From Chiloscyllium plagiosum (lineage: Eukaryota): DNA of 64,000 nucleotides. The position numbers were made by a program, and so were the translations under genes. Under the pieces are notes generated by a model. That model worked only from the letters and a program-made list of their open reading frames with translations, was not told where the DNA came from and made no database searches. The stretch's first letter is position 1, and each line of letters starts with the position of its first letter. Of this stretch, positions 8,751 through 60,605 are shown one piece after another. The stretch covers positions 41,526,677 through 41,590,676 of the forward strand of contig NC_057731.1 of assembly GCF_004010195.1 (NCBI RefSeq), read 5' to 3'.

Positions 8751-9763
8751 AGAATTAAAAACACATCAGGAAAGAAGAGGTGGGCAGCTCTCCTAATGCT
8801 TAAGTTAACATTCTTTCCCTCAACTTGCTCCAATAGGACAGATTATTTGGTTGTCTAAATTATAGTTTGTGCAATCTTGCTGTCCACAAAATGTCGGCTG
8901 GATTACAACAATGACTGGACCTCAAAAATACTTAACTAACTGTGGAAATTACTGAGACGTGACATGAAAGTTGCCATAAGAATACGAATTGTTAGGATTT
9001 TGAAAATTATTTGATGGCGCATTGAGATTTTGTTTTCTGCTGGTCAAGAAATTGAGGACAAAAGAACATTAAAATCTGAGCCAAGTCATTGAAGAGAGAA
9101 GTTCGAAGTCTATTCTTTACAGAGAAAGGGAAGGTAAAACACTGCTTCCACAAAAAGCAGTAGATACTACTAGTTGAATTTGTAATGTTAAATTTGAGAA
9201 AAATTGATTTTTGTTAATTGAGGTTATTACAAGCTTTGGCAGCCAAATGGACTTAGGAACAGCATTCAATGACAGTAAAAGCTTAAGGAGCTAAATCCCA
9301 CAAACCTTTTTCCTATTTCACTTCCAGTTCTGTCTTTCTTACAAACATTATCTTTGACACTGACAAGAATATGTTGCTGGCAGCTACTGGCGATCTCCCT
9401 TCCTTTCCTGACAGTACAGAAGATCTGGTGGTGAATCCCGACTGAGGCTTGTGAATACATTCGCGCTACTCCATATTCAAACAATACTTTATTAACTCAA
9501 ACATACAAAGGATTTTCAACCCCTCAACCTTTTCATAATGTGCTGCATGCCATCCAGCTCATCACATTCCACAACAGCTAAATAAAAACCCAAGGGACAA
9601 CCTCTTGGGTCCAGCTTTAGAAATGCCTGTTCCCTGCAGTGACCCAAACTGAACCCCCTGACCATATATACTGTGAAATTATCAGCAATATCCTTGTGGG
9701 CTCTTAGTATTTACAGTTGGCAAACAGGGATCCAAGTAATTGCAATCCTTCAGAAAATGTACG

Positions 9764-9976
9764 AAGTTAAAAATCACACATCACCAGGTTATAGTCCAAC
9801 AGGTTTATTTGGAAGCACTTGCTTTCGGAGCGCTGCTCTTTCATCAGTATCACTGCACAACCATCTGATGAAGGAGCAGCGCTCCGAAAGCTAGTGCTTC
9901 CAGCTAAACCTGTTGGACTATAACCTGGTGTTGTGTGATTTTTAACTTTGTCCACCCCAATCCAACTCCAAATCAT
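9764..9976. mobile_element. Palindromic PLE-end derivative (84-bp inverted arms 9764-9847 and 9865-9948)
   Basis: Directly visible inverted repeat with a 17-bp spacer; the arms contain a hammerhead motif. Confidence 0.85.
9862..9896 (+). ncRNA. Minimal type-I hammerhead ribozyme motif (CUA cleavage triplet)
   Basis: cat-CTGATGA-a-ggagc-agc-gctcc-GAAA-G/C-TA-gtg. Stem I is cat/gtg, stem II has 5 bp, and stem III is the palindrome AGCT. Confidence 0.7.
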
Positions 9977-35573: not shown

Positions 35574-36392
35574 TAGCTAAAAGCCAGGCTTCCTCTGACA
35601 CTGAGTCTTTCAGATCACTCTTTGCCTCACAGAGATCGATTTAGTACTGCGACACATGATATATCAAAGCACAATCATCACTGTGGAGATTATTTACTTG
35701 CCCTTTTTAGACATTTACATTGCACTGTAGGAGCTATGGAAAAATGACGGTCATGTTACATTTTGTCCATAGCATGCTTAACAGAGATTTATTTTGAACT
35801 TAATGGAGGTGAAATTGGCCGTTGTCAGCAGCACTAAGTGGATTTATAGGGAACCAGCTGCCTGTTGTACAGTTTGATTTTTCTTTTCTATTGGAGCATG
35901 CTTGAACTTCAGGGAGCCTGCCCTCATTCTGAGGTTGAATTGAATATCCATGTCATATTCCTATCCTGTTACTCTCCCGTAGGAATTTTGAGATACATTT
36001 GTTAATACCCTACTGTTTGTGTGCCAGGATATGAAGGGGTTGCATATAGAATTAGAAAGGATGATGGACTATATTAATCTTTATCATATTGCTCTCAACA
36101 GAATATTAGCCCAATTGTGTTAATCTATCCCAGCTACGGGGAAAGTTTCTGCTTGTTTGAGGATTCTGGTCTTATGTGTGCGTGGTTGGATCCTGGTCTG
36201 AGCTGGATTGACAACCGTTGGCTGAGGTGTCCAGAATGAAGGACACGTTCTTTACTTTGTTAGAACCCAGTCTACATCCTGAGATCTCATCACATTCCCT
36301 GAGGTGAGAAATTGGGCGTTTTGATGTTGGCAGAGGCATGTGAGCAATGAGCAACTTCCAGAACAATGCAGAGTAGGCAGATTAGGAATTCA

Positions 36393-36488
36393 GTGTTGAA
36401 ACTTTATTGCTGGAACAGCACAGCAGGTCAGGCAGCATCCAGGGAACAGGAGATTCGACGTTTCGGGCACAGGCCCTTCTTCAGGAAT
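36393..36488 (-). mobile_element. 96-bp PLE-end mini-insert with a perfect 15-bp TSD
   Basis: cagattaggaattca at 36378-36392 and 36489-36503. Confidence 0.88.
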
Positions 36489-36489
36489 C
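36452..36489 (-). ncRNA. Intact minimal type-I hammerhead ribozyme motif (GUC triplet)
   Basis: Reverse complement reads gattc-CTGAAGA-a-gggc-ctgt-gccc-GAAA-C/G-TC-gaatc. Stem I has 5 bp, stem II has 4 bp, and stem III is the palindrome ACGT. Confidence 0.8.
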
Positions 36490-38011
36490 AGATTAGGAAT
36501 TCAATCAACACGCCATCAGCCCTGTCATTGTGGAGCTTAACACTTCAGCGAATGCTCTCTCTTAACCTCACTCAGCTGAACACATGCTCAGTCTCAGGAA
36601 GGGCCCTCCACCAATGTTGCTTTCAAAAACCATCAGCTACTTGTAGGTTATTTGCTGGTCAATTTCCTCTAGATGTTGCTATGATTCTACAATTTAACAG
36701 GGTTGTTTCAAAATGTCATTTAGAGGGATGAAGGAAGTTTGCTGAATTCTGCACAAGCCAGACATGAGTTCATTCCTGGGCACTCCAGCTGGAAGAAAGC
36801 ATGGCTTGGAGAGTGAACAGAAAGCACAGAACAAGCTGCTATAACAGGGACGAGGAGGAAAAGGAGATGCTGTTATACCAGGAGGTCATTCCCATGTAAA
36901 TAATTTGAGGAGAATTTGTCCCCCCTCAGTGACAAAAAATGTGTGAGCTATCAGCATTGAAGTCCGTCACCTGTTCCAGACACAATTACAACGTGGGCAA
37001 TGAAAGTGACTCTGGTAGTGAATTGTTTTGTGGCTGGATCTTTTCAGTCTTGAGTTTGAGATAGTTACCATCCCCAGTTGCATAAAGGAGGTCACTGGAG
37101 CTCTCCACTGAGCAAGTGTAAACTATACTGTATTCTCTTTTGATGGATTGAGCACTTCCACTATTCTTGCAAGCTAATATGTTGGCTAATATGTGGTGAT
37201 TACTGAGTAAGCCATTATTCTTTTCCATTCTTCTCTGTTAATGGGACTCTGACTTGCAACTCCAGGTTACAGTGTAAGAGTTTGAATGCTGGTGAAATTC
37301 AAAAATGGTGAGGAGATTTCACTAAAAAAAAGCTTTTCGGACGGTAGGCATATTCCTCTTTGACAGAACATATTTGCAGATATTAGGGAGCTTGGAGATT
37401 GTAAGTTAACATCCAAAAGCTGAAAGCTAGCATATCTGCTCTGCCTCATGGCTTGCCAAGAGGGGAAACAGGGACAGAATTGCAGAGATTCCAAGATGCA
37501 GACGTATGCAAATATTTCATTAATTGTGGTTAGGTCAGAGAATCATTTGCCATCTGCTTTCTTTAATTGCCATGATTGTTCTGCATTGCACTTGAGTATT
37601 TAGGATGCAGAAGTGATTTTGCCTTGTTTTCATTGTGCACTGTTTTACCTTATTACGCTCAAATTGCTTTACCACAGCTGTTGAAAGCAGATTGTTTGGC
37701 TCTTTAGAATCCTTTGGGTGTTTTCTGATAGACACCTCCTGTGCTGAGTGTCCAACTCTCCCACTCATTGTCTCCATCCCTTTGGGATTTCAACACCTCG
37801 CAGTTCCTGACAGCAGCATCTGTGGCTTCAGAGGAAAGGCTTGGCACTGTCACATACCTGTAATGTTTTCTAAACACCTAGGATTTCACTGTGAAATAAA
37901 CTGCTACAGAAGAAAGTAAAATAATTCCATAAATTCTATTTAAAAACAGTCTAGTTATGAAAACATTACAGGAATTAACATTACTCCTGTTTTGCTCATT
38001 CTCAACAAGAA

Positions 38012-40084: not shown

Positions 40085-42020
40085 TCAGTCACAGCGACAG
40101 CATCGGTGGGCAGCGAGTAGGCCCAGCACAGGCTTGTAGTGGTCAGCAATTAGGCCCAGAATGGACATATGGCGGCGAGCGAATACGCCCAGCGTGGGTT
40201 TGTGGCGGTCAACAGGTAGGCTCAGTGCAGGCTTGTGATGGTCAGTGAGTAGTCCCAGCGCAGACACATGATGGTCAGTGAGTAGGCCCAGCGCAGACAC
40301 ATGATGGTCAGTGAGTAGACCCAGTGCGGACATGTGATGGTCAGCGAGTAGACCCACCGAGGACACGTGATGGTCAGTGAGTAGTCCCAGAGCGGACACA
40401 TAATGGTCAGTGAGTAGTCCCAGAGCGGACACGTGATGGTCAGTGAGTAGGCCAAGCACGGACACATGGTGGTCAGTGAGTAAGCCCACCGAGGACACGT
40501 GATGGTCAGTGAGTAAGCCCACTGAGGACACGTGATGGTCAGTGAGTAGGCCCACCGTGGACACGTGATGGTCAGCGAATAGTCCCAGTGTGGACACGTG
40601 ATAGTCAGTGAGTAGGCCCAGCACGGACACGTGATGGTCACCGAGTAGGCCCACCGTGGACACGTGATGGACAGTGAATAGTCCCAGCATGAACATGTGA
40701 TGGTCAGTGAGTAGGCCCAGCGCAGACACGAGATGGTTAGCGAGTAGCCCCAGTGCAGATACGTGATGGTCAGATATCAGGCACAGCGCGGACATATTAT
40801 GGTCAGCGAGTAGGCTCACCGCGGACACATGGTGGTCAGTGGGTAGTCCCACCGTGAACAAGTGATGGTCAGCGAGTAGTCCCAGCATGGACACATGATG
40901 GTCAGTGAGTAGTCTCAGTGCAGACACATAATGGTCAGTGAGTAGGCCCAACACGGACACGTGATGGTCAGCGAGTAGTCCCAGTGCAGACACGTGATGG
41001 TCAGTGAGTAGGCCAAGCGCGGACACATGATGGTCAGTTATCAGGCACAGCGCAAACACATTATGGTCAGCGAGTAGGCCCAGCACGGACATGTGGTGGT
41101 CAGTGAGTAGGCCAAGCACGGACACGTAATGGTCAGCGAGTAGTCTCAGCGCGGACACATGATGGTCAGTGAGTAGGCCCACCACGGATATGTGATAGTC
41201 AGCGTGTAGACCCACCACGGACACATGATGGTCAGCGAGTAGGCCCACCGAGGACACGTGATGGTCAGTGAGTAGTCCTAGCGCGGACACGTGATGGTCA
41301 GTGAGTAGGCCAAGCACAGACACGTGATGGTAAGCGAGTAGGCCAAGCACGGACACATGATGGTCAGTGAGTAAGTCCACTGAGGACACGTGATGGTCAG
41401 CGAGTCGGCCAAGCATGGACACGTGATGGTCAGTGAGTAGGCCCAGCGCAGACACGAGATGGTCAGCAAGTAGTCCCAGTGCAGATATGTGATGGTCAGT
41501 TATCAGGCACAGCGCGGACAAATTATGGTCAGTGAGTAGGCTCACCGCGGACACATGGTGGTCAGTGGGTAGGCCCACCATGAACACGTGATGGTCAGCG
41601 AGTAGTCCCAGCGTGGACACATGATGGTCAGTGAGTAGTCTCAGCGCAGACACATAATGGTCAGTGAGTAGGCCCAGCACGGACACGTGATGGTCAGCGA
41701 GTAGGCCCAGTGCAGACACGTGATGGTCAGTTATCAGGCCCAGCGCAGACACATTGTGGTCAGCGAATAGGCTCAGCGCAGACTTATGATGGTTAGCGAG
41801 CAGGCTTAGTGTGGACACATGGTGGTCAGTGAGTGGGCCCAGTGCAGGCTTGTGGTGGTCAGTGAGTATGCCCAGCATGGACACGTGACGGTCAGCGAGT
41901 ATGCCCAGTGCGGACATCTGGTGGTCAGTGAGTAGGCCCAGTGGGAGCTTATGGCAGTCAGTGAGTAAACTCAGCGCAGGCTTGTGGTGGTCAGCAAGTA
42001 GGACCAGCGCGGACATGTGA
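40085..42020. repeat. 33-bp GC-rich minisatellite, about 58 units (consensus gtgatggtcagtgagtaggcccagcgcggacac)
   Basis: Visible 33-nt period. The minus frame stays open for 643 aa as (VSALGLLTDHH)n, so there is no net frameshifting indel. Confidence 0.95.
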
Positions 42021-42139
42021 TGTCTCCCTCAATTTCTGACATTTCTTCATTGCTTGGCAGCCATGTCCAATGGCAGAAAATGCCCCAATCTCTTCATTAC
42101 TGAAGGAGATAAGGCTTCATTCTGCAGTCTCATCAACAA

Positions 42140-51272: not shown

Positions 51273-52479
51273 ACTGTCTGTAAGACTTTGGTCTCATATC
51301 ACATCGTATAAAATATTGCTTTGAAGAGATTTTGGCAATGTTGCTCAGGAAAGCCTTGGGTGGAGAATTAGGCAGTCTAGAATGAGGTCCTAATGGAGAA
51401 AAACATGTCATTGCTGGCTTCTGCTTGCCCTTGTAATTATGCCTAACCAAGCAATGCAATATATATGTATTGCTATCATGAATTAAACAGCACCTTGTTG
51501 CTAAGACAAGTGCCTCTTCTTGTTACGACTCAACACAGTAGAATCTGAATTCAATGAAAATCTGGAATTAAGCCTCCAATGATGATCATAAAACATTATT
51601 GGAAAAAACTCATTTGATCATTAATATCCTATGGGAAAGAAACTGCCATCTTTACTGGTCTGGCCGATATGTGACTCCAGACCCACTGCAATATGATTGA
51701 CCTCTTAACCGCCCTCTGAGTAATTAAGAATGGGTGATAAATGTTGGCCCAGCCAGAGGTGCCCTCATCCTGTAAAAAGCCCCTTAAACTCAGCATAGTA
51801 AAGAGGACTGATGACAGCCAGTCAAGTACAAGCCAACTACACCCCAACCACATGCTGCCAACGATTGGTGACTAACCCAAAATCCAGTATGACATGATCA
51901 AGTAAAAAGACTGCACTTTCAAGAGAAATATCACATCAGTTTTATTACACATCATTGCAAAGTTAACCAGAGGTAACCAAGGGTAACTATAGGAAAAGTT
52001 GCAATGTGTATTCTCTGGCCTGCGTCCAGTAAGATGGGAGCCAGTGATGTTGTGCATTGCACACCAAAAAATGCAAATATATAAGTAGGATCGTGAGCCA
52101 GTAAAATGGGAAGGTAACTTAGCAGGAAGAGAAGGGACAGATGAGAAAATATTAGATGTCGCTTAAGTGAAAATCCTGAGGTTATTATGTGTGTAAGGCT
52201 GTTGAGAGGAAATTGTGGGATTTCTCAATATCTGAGAGGTCAGAAAACATTTTGTCTGACTTAAACTTGCATTCGGGAAAATGGATTTGTAAGAACCAGA
52301 AGTGGTTAGTTATTTTCTGTAAGGATGAAAGTACCATAGAGTGTGACATTGTGACTCACCAAACAGAATGTTATAATTCCAATTTCATATTAATTTAGCA
52401 GATTTTGTCTCAACATATTAGAATTAGTCTCAGTGCACTAGAATTAATCTCAGAGCTCTTGGGACAAGAGAGGGAAGGG

Positions 52480-52799
52480 CTGAAAGTGTGTTGCTGGAAA
52501 AGCGTAGCAGGTCAGGCAGCATCCAGGGAACAGGAGAATCGACGTTTCGGGCATAAGCCCTTCTTCAGGAATGAGGAAAGCCTTTCCAGTTTAGTTCTAT
52601 CCCTCCTATAGCAGGGCAACCAGAATTGTACACAGTGCTCCAAAAATGGCCTTACCAATATTTTTTACAGCTGCAACATGTTCCCTGGATGCTGCCTGAG
52701 ATTAAGTCATGTTCCCTGGATGCTGCCTGACCTGCTGCGCTTTTCCAGCAACACATTTTCAGCTCTGATCTCCAGCATCTGCAGACCTCACTTTCTCCT
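52480..52799. mobile_element. Palindromic PLE-end insert with a 15-bp TSD, a hammerhead and a captured inverted copy of the flank
   Basis: caagagagggaaggg at 52465-52479 and 52800-52814. Hammerhead on the minus strand at 52537-52572. Segment 52582-52681 is the reverse complement of 52909-53008. Confidence 0.88.
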
Positions 52800-52854
52800 C
52801 AAGAGAGGGAAGGGGGCAAATATATTCAACTTGTTTACTGGTCAAAGATATCTG

Positions 52855-53467
52855 CATAAGGATGCTTTGCTTTTATTGGTCAGAGCATTGAGTATAGGAG
52901 TTGGGCTGACATGTTGCAGCTGTAAAAAGTATTGGTAAGGCCATTTTTGGAGCACTGTGTACAATTCTGGTTGCCCTGCTATAGGAGGGATATAACTAAA
53001 CTGGAAAGACTGTGGAAAAAAAATCACAATTCTGGAGGATTTAAGAGATTGGATTGGCTCGGTCTTTTTCCCCGCAGTGTAGGAGGCTGACGGGTGACCT
53101 TATGGAGATTTGTAACATCATGAAAGGCATAGTTAAAGTGAATAGCCAAGGTCTTTTCCACAGGGTAGGGGAGTCCAAAACCAGAGGGCACAGGTTTAAG
53201 GTAAGAGAGGAAAGATTTAAAAGAGATCTGAGGGGCAATCTTTTCACACAGAAGGTGGTGCAGATATGGAATGAACTGCCAAAGGAAATGGTAGAGGCAA
53301 GCATAATTACAACATTTAAAAGATATTTGGACAGGTACATGGATAGGAAAAGTTTAGAAAGAGCAGGGCCAAATGCAGGCAAAAGGAACTAATTCAGTTT
53401 CGGAAACCTGATCAGCGTGGACGAGTTGGACCAATGGGTCTGTTTCTGTGCTGTATGACTCTATGAC
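52855..53467 (+). mobile_element. CR1 3' fragment
   Basis: VRPFLEHCVQFWLP, LTGDLMEI and RGNLFTQKVV motifs; tail tatgactctatgac. Confidence 0.88.
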
Positions 53468-59984: not shown

Positions 59985-60605
59985 TCTGTCACATTCCAAC
60001 ATATTGCCACACTGTCATCTATTAGTAAGGACAAGGTTACACTGGAGGTTGTTGGTAGCTTCACATATCTAGGCTTCACAATCACTTGCAATCTGCTGAA
60101 GTCAACATACACATTACAAAAGTGAGTTTTGAGAAAATCTGTGGCTCAGGTTGAGTTTTGGATGTAGATTTGCTCGCTGAGCTGGAAGGTTCATTTCCAG
60201 ACATTTCGTCACCCTACTAGGTAACATCTTCAGTGGGCCTCCAGTGGGTAAAGCGCTGTTGCTGATTCCTGCTTTTTATTTGTATGTTTGGGTTGACATC
60301 ACCAATGCAAAGAAACCCATTTGTAGCAGTGCTTCACCTGGAGGCCCACTGAAGATGTTACCTAGTAGGGTGACAAAACGTCTGGAAATGAACCTTCCAG
60401 CTCAGCAAGCAAACCTACATCCACATTACAAAAGCTCAGTGCTATGTCCAAGTTGACAAAGAGAGTTTGGAACAACAACAGTCTGAGAACACAAATGCAG
60501 GTTAACAAAGCTGTGTCCTCTGCACGTTCCTCTACAATGGTGAGACCTGAACAACATAAACTGGGCAGGAGAACAACTCCAACAATTTACACCTTCACTA
60601 CTTCA
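59985..60605 (+). mobile_element. Decayed RTE LINE fragment split by a PLE insert
   Basis: LEVVGSFTYLGFTI before the insert; AMSKLTKRVWNNN and FLYNGET after it. Confidence 0.7.
60123..60421. mobile_element. Palindromic PLE-end insert (distinct family) with a 13-bp TSD and paired hammerheads
   Basis: Arms at about 60159-60244 and 60338-60423. cacattacaaaag at 60110-60122 and 60422-60434. Motif cca-CTGAAGA-t-gttacc-tagtag-ggtgac-GAAA-(c/t)GTC-tgg. Confidence 0.85.

What the first reader, a model, noticed from the sequence alone, without database searches (positions are those of the whole stretch)
36378..36503. A 96-bp mobile unit that is essentially a hammerhead ribozyme plus PLE tail, with a perfect 15-bp TSD
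Seen: the minus strand reads gattc CTGAAGA a gggc ctgt gccc GAAAC GTC gaatc, with all catalytic core residues and perfect stems I and II. Stem III is loopless and palindromic (ACGT). The insert boundary falls at the 5' edge of stem I, and the duplication cagattaggaattca flanks it exactly. Known: Penelope-like elements carry minimal type-I hammerheads thought to cleave as dimers. Inference: this is a recent ribozyme-bounded micro-element, either a SINE-like PLE parasite or a preferred truncation at the ribozyme structure.
Basis: partly seen in the sequence, partly recalled or inferred. Interest (0 to 1): 0.75.

Follow-up and report, generated by a model that had tools for sequence, protein, structure and literature searches.

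The report
Penelope retrotransposon stub with hammerhead
This short insert is one of thousands of stubs of a young Penelope-like jumping gene; it begins exactly at the front edge of a small hammerhead ribozyme motif, likely because the element's capped RNA starts there and was copied right to its first base.

Summary
The hammerhead motif and the perfect 15-bp duplication are real. The insert is not a separate SINE: 94 of its 96 bases are the terminal repeat (pLTR) of a young Neptune-like Penelope element with RT and GIY-YIG domains; 9,656 places carry the exact front 21-mer. It lacks the PLE 'tail', and native stem I is 4 bp (the fifth pair is a host base). 3' ends fall at two sites 35-37 nt apart; 74 of 77 head-to-head insertions pair one of each. 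5' ends pile up at the first bases of stem I (0.16 per base) and not at the cleavage site (0.004), although about half the copies read through. Beyond the earlier notes: an extra G precedes that end in 21 of 29 host junctions against 5 of 21 at shorter ends, and a TATA-like motif sits about 30 nt upstream. This is the signature expected of a capped transcription start. Best reading: cDNA started internally near the RNA's 5' end ran off the cap and was integrated. RNA data did not test the start. The scan had noted the pile-up before on other DNA of this genome.

The parts
36489..36503 (-). Target-site duplication, copy at the element's 5' side; its last base (36489, G on the minus strand) is the apparent fifth pair of stem I
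   Evidence: the element has C at this position
36378..36392 (-). Target-site duplication, copy at the element's 3' side
   Evidence: 15 of 15 identical
36395..36488 (-). 94-bp tail-less pLTR segment (element positions -94 to 0) of a young Neptune-like Penelope element
   Evidence: 40 scored genome matches are 100% identical over the 96-mer; contiguous with a GIY-YIG ORF in L074 and L111
36485..36488 (-). Stem I 5' strand AUUC; the A at 36488 is the modal 5' end of the family and the inferred transcription start
36478..36484 (-). Hammerhead core CUGAAGA
36465..36477 (-). Unpaired A plus stem II GGGC-CUGU-GCCC
36457..36464 (-). GAAA core and palindromic loopless helix III (ACGU) ending in GUC; predicted cleavage between 36457 and 36456
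   Evidence: cleavage position from established hammerhead chemistry, not tested
36453..36456 (-). Stem I 3' strand GAAU
36395..36452 (-). pLTR body ending at the tail-less 3' end (...TTTCAAC), the inferred first RT initiation site; holds AATAAA at 36408-36403
36393..36394 (-). 'AC': not element sequence; target-derived or untemplated

Best explanation
The insert is a solo 94-bp stub of the hammerhead-bearing terminal repeat of a young Neptune-like Penelope retrotransposon, likely made when the element's RT started inside the RNA close to its 5' end and ran off the capped first base, which is likely the A that opens stem I. Shown: the family, the two fixed 3' ends (0/+1 and +35 to +37), the pile-up of 5' ends at -91 to -96, the G excess before -94, and the upstream motif. 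Inferred: (1) Pol II starts at the C|A step at -94, so the hammerhead occupies nt 1-36 of the mRNA; (2) the GIY-YIG domain nicks both strands 10-17 nt apart and each 3' end can prime at one of two internal sites, as shown in vitro for the anole element; (3) copying from the 5' pLTR of the mRNA ends after 94 or about 130 nt, like a strong-stop product; (4) two such cDNAs joined head to head give the common palindromes, and one joined to the other target end gives this solo insert; (5) long copies come from the 3' pLTR of long transcripts or from template jumps. The template was uncleaved, so ribozyme cleavage is not part of this insertion step.
For: Family: RVT_1 E=2.5e-8 and GIY-YIG E=2.9e-4, the latter below Pfam's cut-off; CX4CX2C linker in L074. 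3' ends: 135 of 244 segments at 0/+1 and 71 at +35 to +37 (the sample was anchored on these ends, but one search shows the same 0/+1 end without the AC requirement). 74 of 77 head-to-head pairs are tailed plus tail-less and none tail plus tail. 5' ends: 102 of 244 at -91 to -96, 0.16 per base at risk, against 0.004 at -60 to -64 and 0.007 at -65 to -84. Genome-wide, 9,656 places reach -94, 4,635 reach -104, and 1,840 have a non-element base at -95 (a lower bound). Cap-like G: 21 of 29 host junctions without microhomology at -94, against 5 of 21 at -84 to -93, Fisher p=8e-4. G in 9 of 12 junctions with untemplated bases, p=4e-4 against 25%. Microhomology 10 of 39 against 21 of 42, p=0.02. L1 full-length insertions show the same pattern of extra G and little microhomology (PMC11702581, passage). 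A TTTATC motif lies 29-33 nt upstream of the A in most long copies of diverged subfamilies whose spacers differ, and a second hammerhead family has TATAAA 38-40 nt upstream of its core with 17 of 39 cores ending within 14 nt of it. In tandem copies the outermost unit starts at -92 to -94 while inner units run through (L193, L194, L244, L210). Internal initiation at two sites, extension of both strands and no need for HHR cleavage are reported for the anole PLE (PMC11167929). The start site of D. virilis Penelope lies in the pLTR (PMC2377424 and PMC8557442, passages).
Against: No RNA evidence for the start site. Up to 48% of copies that reach -94 continue to -104, more than my sample suggested (about a third), so -94 is not an absolute stop. 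Ends scatter from -85 to -96 and microhomology blurs single junctions by 1-5 nt. The direct gap-only comparison of G (9 of 12 against 3 of 6) is not significant, p=0.29. The loci for the G test were picked by eye from the first 100 listings. In the window copy the G belongs to the duplication, so it cannot be assigned to a cap. TTTATC is not a canonical TATA box, and 2 of the listed long older copies place it differently or have a variant. In family B the ends are broader (1-14 nt before the core). Two segments of one palindromic insertion are not independent. No intact full-length copy was found among the loci fetched.
Confidence: 0.7

Rival explanations
1. The RNA starts further upstream, and the -94 end is set by the folded ribozyme or the bound protein: a 5'-3' exonuclease trims to the base of stem I, or RT stalls there.
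For: The modal end is exactly the first paired base of stem I; ends precede the hammerhead in a second family too.
Against: RT meets the 3' arms of stems I and II first, where ends are rare (0.004-0.007 per base). Trimmed ends carry no cap, yet G is in excess. About half of the copies pass the site. Family B ends reach up to 14 nt before the core, beyond its 3-4 bp stem I. A TATA-like motif lies at start-site distance in both families.
Confidence: 0.12
2. The end and the extra G come from the cDNA itself: its 3' end GAAT snaps back onto ATTC (stem I mirrored in the cDNA), is extended by a base and is released or joined.
For: The base that such an extension would add reads G on the sense strand; fold-back junctions are frequent. 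Self-priming was proposed for PLE palindromes (PMC3846280, passage).
Against: The second templated base would be A: only 7 of 24 G junctions read AG, a background rate (by eye), and no longer templated run was seen. It does not explain the upstream motif or the lower microhomology.
Confidence: 0.08
3. The stub is a copy of a non-autonomous, SINE- or retrozyme-like short RNA that parasitises the PLE enzymes.
For: Internally deleted tandem derivatives recur at several loci: a 224-bp unit (L193, L194, L222, L244) and a +161/-160 junction (L195, L212, L213, L219, L227, L230, L233, L241, L242). Such arrays are described as non-LTR retrozymes (bioRxiv 10.64898/2026.07.22.740005). They could donate templates, which is compatible with the best explanation.
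Against: The solo stub has no diagnostic changes against long copies. Its ends are ragged, not fixed. It lacks the upstream motif and everything downstream of the RT start, which the anole enzyme needs (PMC11167929), so it is predicted to be dead on arrival.
Confidence: 0.08
4. The unit is bounded by hammerhead self-cleavage.
For: An intact minimal hammerhead lies at the 5' end.
Against: Cleavage would give ends at -62; 4 of 244 segments end at -60 to -64, not above neighbouring positions. This copy holds the whole uncleaved motif.
Confidence: 0.02

Closest known systems
EN+ Penelope-like elements, Neptune type (pLTR, optional 30-40 bp tail, inverted 5'-truncated copy; PMC8557442, PMC3846280)
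   Same: RT plus C-terminal GIY-YIG, CX2-5CxxC linker, hammerhead in the pLTR, 35-37 nt tail on one end only, inverted pLTR, duplications of about 10-17 bp, partial tandems.
   Different: The passages read describe 5' truncation as variable; here it is concentrated at one site with a cap-like G. No phylogeny was run.
Minimal type-I hammerheads of metazoan PLEs (Cervera and de la Pena 2014, PMC4209133)
   Same: Core CUGANGA/GAAA, extra base before helix II, G-C first pair of helix II, 4-bp helix I, palindromic loopless helix III; mostly solo copies ascribed to truncated PLEs.
   Different: Helix II is 4 bp (7-8 in the Schistosoma motifs). That paper proposes cleavage of precursors; here copy ends avoid the cleavage site, and the motif is inferred to open the mRNA.
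Poseidon element PAc of Anolis carolinensis (Frangieh et al. 2024, PMC11167929)
   Same: Two internal RT start sites that delimit the tail, both strands extended, uncleaved RNA as template.
   Different: Different clade; there the ORF starts within the hammerhead, here about 73 nt after the first RT start. In the parts read, 5' ends of genomic copies and the start site are not mapped.
Non-LTR retrozymes (bioRxiv 10.64898/2026.07.22.740005)
   Same: pLTR-derived, hammerhead-bearing, non-coding; this family has tandem derivatives that fit the definition.
   Different: The window copy is a single stub, not a tandem, and is not cut at the cleavage site.
Full-length LINE-1 insertions (extra G from the cap; PMC11702581) and retroviral minus-strand strong-stop DNA (recalled, no call)
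   Same: RT runs to the capped 5' end; extra G and little microhomology at the junction.
   Different: L1 starts at the RNA's 3' end, so run-off gives a full-length copy. Strong-stop DNA is transferred, not integrated. Here run-off is inferred to give 94-130 bp stubs that are integrated directly.

Membership tests
EN+ Penelope-like element | RT domain in the parent element | tested here: met
   RVT_1 E=2.5e-8, above cut-off, on L064; an RT fragment lies inside the TSD-flanked insert L022 that ends in the same 96-mer
EN+ Penelope-like element | C-terminal GIY-YIG endonuclease directly before the pLTR | tested here: met
   PF01541 E=2.9e-4, 21.5 bits, just under the 22.6 cut-off; IY..LLYIG motif contiguous with the pLTR in L074 and L111
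EN+ Penelope-like element | pLTR with optional 30-40 bp tail and inverted 5' copy | tested here: met
   35-37 nt tail; 74 of 77 head-to-head pairs have it on one side only
EN+ Penelope-like element | Single intact ORF (autonomous copy) | tested here: inconclusive
   Only pieces were found (N-terminal 382 aa in L226, RT, EN); long copies are broken by N runs
Neptune clade | CX2-5CxxC linker before the endonuclease | tested here: met
   CARRRCNTC in L074; motif as given in PMC8557442. The paper gives a linker motif for Nematis too
Neptune clade | RT phylogeny | not tested
   no tree was built
Minimal type-I hammerhead | Core residues, helix II, helix I, palindromic 15.2-16.2 | tested here: met
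   Descriptor hit; other families in the loci keep pairing with changed sequence (GGGC/GCCC, GGAGC/GCTCC, GTTACC/GGTGAC; ACGT, AGCT)
Minimal type-I hammerhead | Self-cleavage (dimer or protein-assisted) | not testable with these tools
   needs an in vitro assay
Rfam hammerhead families | Covariance-model match | tested here: not met
   no hammerhead hit
SINE / non-autonomous family | Fixed ends and own lineage distinct from the autonomous element | tested here: not met
   ragged 5' ends, sequence identical to the pLTR of long copies; no full tree was built
Non-LTR retrozyme | Tandem of two or more hammerhead-bearing units | tested here: not met
   single unit in the window; met by relatives L193, L194, L244

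The most novel reading that the evidence does not exclude
In these vertebrate Penelope elements the hammerhead is the first 36 nt of the capped mRNA. Internal RT initiation on the 5' pLTR turns most transposition events into strong-stop-like stubs and head-to-head palindromes. The ribozyme is then not a precursor-processing device but a conditional self-decapping switch: cleavage, in a dimer or with protein bound, would remove a 32-nt capped leader and take that RNA out of translation.
Probability: 0.35. Interest if true: 0.75.

Novelty: new member of a known kind. Interest (0 to 1): 0.45.

Why it matters
The single insert is ordinary: thousands exist in this genome and the architecture is described for PLEs. 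The population matters. How PLEs form their inverted repeats and what their hammerheads do are called unresolved in the papers read (PMC8557442, PMC11167929). A very young, very abundant family records both: two RT start sites used asymmetrically (74 of 77), run-off at one position, and a cap-like G. If the start site is the first base of the ribozyme, one CAGE experiment and one capped-template assay would test the transposition model and give the hammerhead a concrete role. Six literature searches turned up no paper placing a PLE start site at helix I; subscription papers, the figures of PMC11167929 and its unreadable supplementary figures may hold it.

Tried and rejected
Rfam gave no hammerhead hit; MIR825 at 9790-9924 is a palindrome artefact. 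The MFE fold was uninformative. RNA runs: no RNA holder listed. Laying two raw-read runs and two contig sets gave no place where many molecules begin or end; X19 had 736 reads, on both strands and mostly from diverged copies, and X20 had 0, so the start site was not tested. A search for a paralogous empty site with the 3' flank found only 70-94% partial matches, none covering the site; no related genome is held. The -91 control listing is confounded by G templated from the element's own GGGCC, so I moved to fetched loci. A 3' splice site at -94, as at helix I in D. virilis, was rejected because there is no AG at -96/-95. The bacterial promoter scan is irrelevant here. 'AC' as a conserved or telomerase-like addition was rejected. 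Twenty fetched regions held no intact full-length ORF. Supplements 1 and 2 of PMC11167929 gave only figure lettering; supplement 3 was not read. The sequence look-up in earlier findings returned nothing.

Full report
Observation. On the minus strand, 36488-36453 reads ATTC CTGAAGA A GGGC CTGT GCCC GAAA CGTC GAAT, and a perfect 15-bp direct repeat encloses 96 bp (about 0.02 expected by chance). A minimal-hammerhead descriptor hits it, and 138 distinct sites in the loci held, against 0 in five shuffles; other families keep the pairing with different sequence. Rfam does not match it, and a plain fold shows only stem II. Three details need correction. The G that makes stem I five pairs is the last base of the duplication; the element has C. 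The element ends at TTTCAAC, so it contributes 94 bp; the final AC occurs in 5 of 100 listed ends and is target DNA in 41 of 77 AC-ended copies. The PLE 'tail' is a further 35-37 nt that this copy lacks. Positions below are counted from the end of TTTCAAC (0); the insert starts at -94 and cleavage would leave an end at -62.

What it belongs to. All 40 scored genome matches were 100% identical over the 96-mer; 285 places carry its last 27 bases, 10,472 a tail-bearing 35-mer and 9,656 the front 21-mer. Longer copies continue upstream into a GIY-YIG frame (PF01541, E=2.9e-4, just under cut-off) with a CX4CX2C linker, and RT sequence (RVT_1, E=2.5e-8) lies in inserts of the same family. Downstream of the tail an ORF begins near +73. 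This is a young EN+ Penelope-like element of Neptune type by its linker; no tree was built and no intact copy was found.

3' ends. Of 244 usable segments (249 found, 5 dropped for N at the junction), 135 end at 0/+1 and 71 at +35 to +37. The sample was anchored on these ends, but, which did not require AC, shows the same 0/+1 end. Of 77 head-to-head insertions, 74 have one tailed and one tail-less arm, 3 two tail-less, none two tailed. Duplications at host-joined stubs are 8-18 bp, mode 14. This matches the two internal RT start sites, the extension of both strands and the predicted dimer reported for the anole element (PMC11167929; parts 1-2 of 4 read).

5' ends. 102 of 244 segments end at -91 to -96 and 42 at -85 to -90. 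The rate per base at risk is 0.16 at -91 to -96, 0.004 at the cleavage site, 0.003-0.007 downstream and 0.007-0.02 upstream. Tailed, tail-less, solo and inverted arms all show the peak. Genome-wide, 4,635 of the 9,656 places that reach -94 also reach -104; the loss of 52% includes some point changes and is smaller than in my sample, so read-through is common. 1,840 places have a non-element base right at -95. In tandem copies inner hammerheads are passed and the outermost unit starts at -92 to -94, and some copies jump from -92 to -96 onto ORF sequence. The boundary therefore lies at the ribozyme's front edge, 32 nt from the cleavage site, on uncleaved template.

Why there. Three tests favour the RNA's capped start. 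First, a G excess. By eye, 30 of 54 junctions not explained by an inverted partner have G at -95 (25% expected; 21 of 45 after dropping 9 possibly templated ones). In fetched host-joined copies, G precedes the end in 21 of 29 junctions without microhomology at -94, against 5 of 21 at -84 to -93 (p=8e-4), and in 9 of 12 with untemplated bases. The gap-only comparison with controls (3 of 6) is not significant. These loci were 57 picked by eye plus those already held. Second, microhomology is rarer at -94 (10 of 39) than at shorter ends (21 of 42). Both features are described for full-length L1 insertions (PMC11702581, passages). Third, TTTATC sits 29-33 nt before the A in most long copies of diverged subfamilies whose spacers differ, and a second family has TATAAA 38-40 nt before its core with 17 of 39 cores ending within 14 nt of it (about 42 of 100 by eye). 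CTCATTC fits an initiator consensus that I recall and did not test. A pLTR start site is reported for D. virilis Penelope and for a Chlamys element (PMC2377424, PMC8557442; passages). The RNA lay did not test the start.

Mechanism. Inferred: the endonuclease makes staggered nicks; each 3' end primes at one of two internal sites in the 5' pLTR of the mRNA; RT runs 94 or about 130 nt to the cap; two cDNAs join head to head, often through the self-complementary AT at their ends (the frequent CAGGAATTCCTG junction), or one cDNA joins the other target end, as in this window. Long copies need the 3' pLTR of a long transcript or a template jump. Confidence 0.7 for this chain; that the insert is a PLE stub is near certain. 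Rivals are exonuclease or RT arrest at the structure (0.12), cDNA snap-back (0.08; only 7 of 24 G junctions continue with the predicted A, by eye), a SINE-like short RNA (0.08; tandem deletion derivatives do exist) and cleavage-defined ends (0.02).

Comparison and novelty. Minimal hammerheads in PLE pLTRs, mostly as solo copies, are described (PMC4209133, parts 1-2 of 4), as are inverted pLTRs with a one-sided tail (PMC3846280, PMC8557442, passages) and tandem retrozymes derived from pLTRs (bioRxiv 10.64898/2026.07.22.740005, parts 1-3 of 5). The insert is a new member of a known kind. Earlier notes of this scan on the same genome report the same pile-up and suspect the RNA start; I had stated this reading before seeing them, and they are not independent support. 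Searches found no paper placing a PLE start site at helix I. If it holds, cleavage would remove a 32-nt capped leader, a testable role for a ribozyme whose function the papers read leave open. Interest 0.45.

Noticed in passing
window 9758-9954: Head-to-head palindrome of a second hammerhead-bearing PLE family (core CTGATGA, helix III AGCT), joined just upstream of the core; it causes the spurious Rfam MIR825 hit. 14,651 genome matches to a pattern around its core.
   Followed up: partly
window 60159-60423: Palindrome of a third hammerhead family, with arms reaching 60-70 nt upstream of the core.
   Followed up: no
window 52476-52800: Older subfamily insertion with an inverted tailed arm; between the arms lies an inverted 97% copy of about 100 bp of nearby host DNA (52579-52681 against 52909-53011).
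   Followed up: no
L193, L194, L222, L244; L195, L212, L213, L219, L227, L230, L233, L241, L242: Internally deleted tandem derivatives recurring at several loci: a 224-bp unit (+114 joined to -108) and a +161/-160 junction; retrozyme-like non-autonomous forms.
   Followed up: partly
L003, L012, L022, L192: Shared captured stretch resembling another PLE's endonuclease region, joined to this pLTR at -101 to -113; a multi-copy chimeric derivative.
   Followed up: no
listing, e.g. L133: 7 of 100 listed 3' ends continue into one shared non-element sequence; probably a derived multi-copy element or a transduced flank.
   Followed up: no
L269: An inverted arm of the older family-A repeat is joined to a family-B arm across the hammerhead core start that both share.
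   Followed up: no
L226, ORF 5' part: The element's N-terminal frame runs into a tandem 12-residue proline-rich repeat.
   Followed up: no
window 36403-36408: AATAAA 8-13 nt before the first 3' end in this young subfamily; older window copies lack it.
   Followed up: no
window 40085-42028: Tandem repeat of about 33-bp period with a 647-codon open frame on the minus strand; probably a minisatellite.
   Followed up: no
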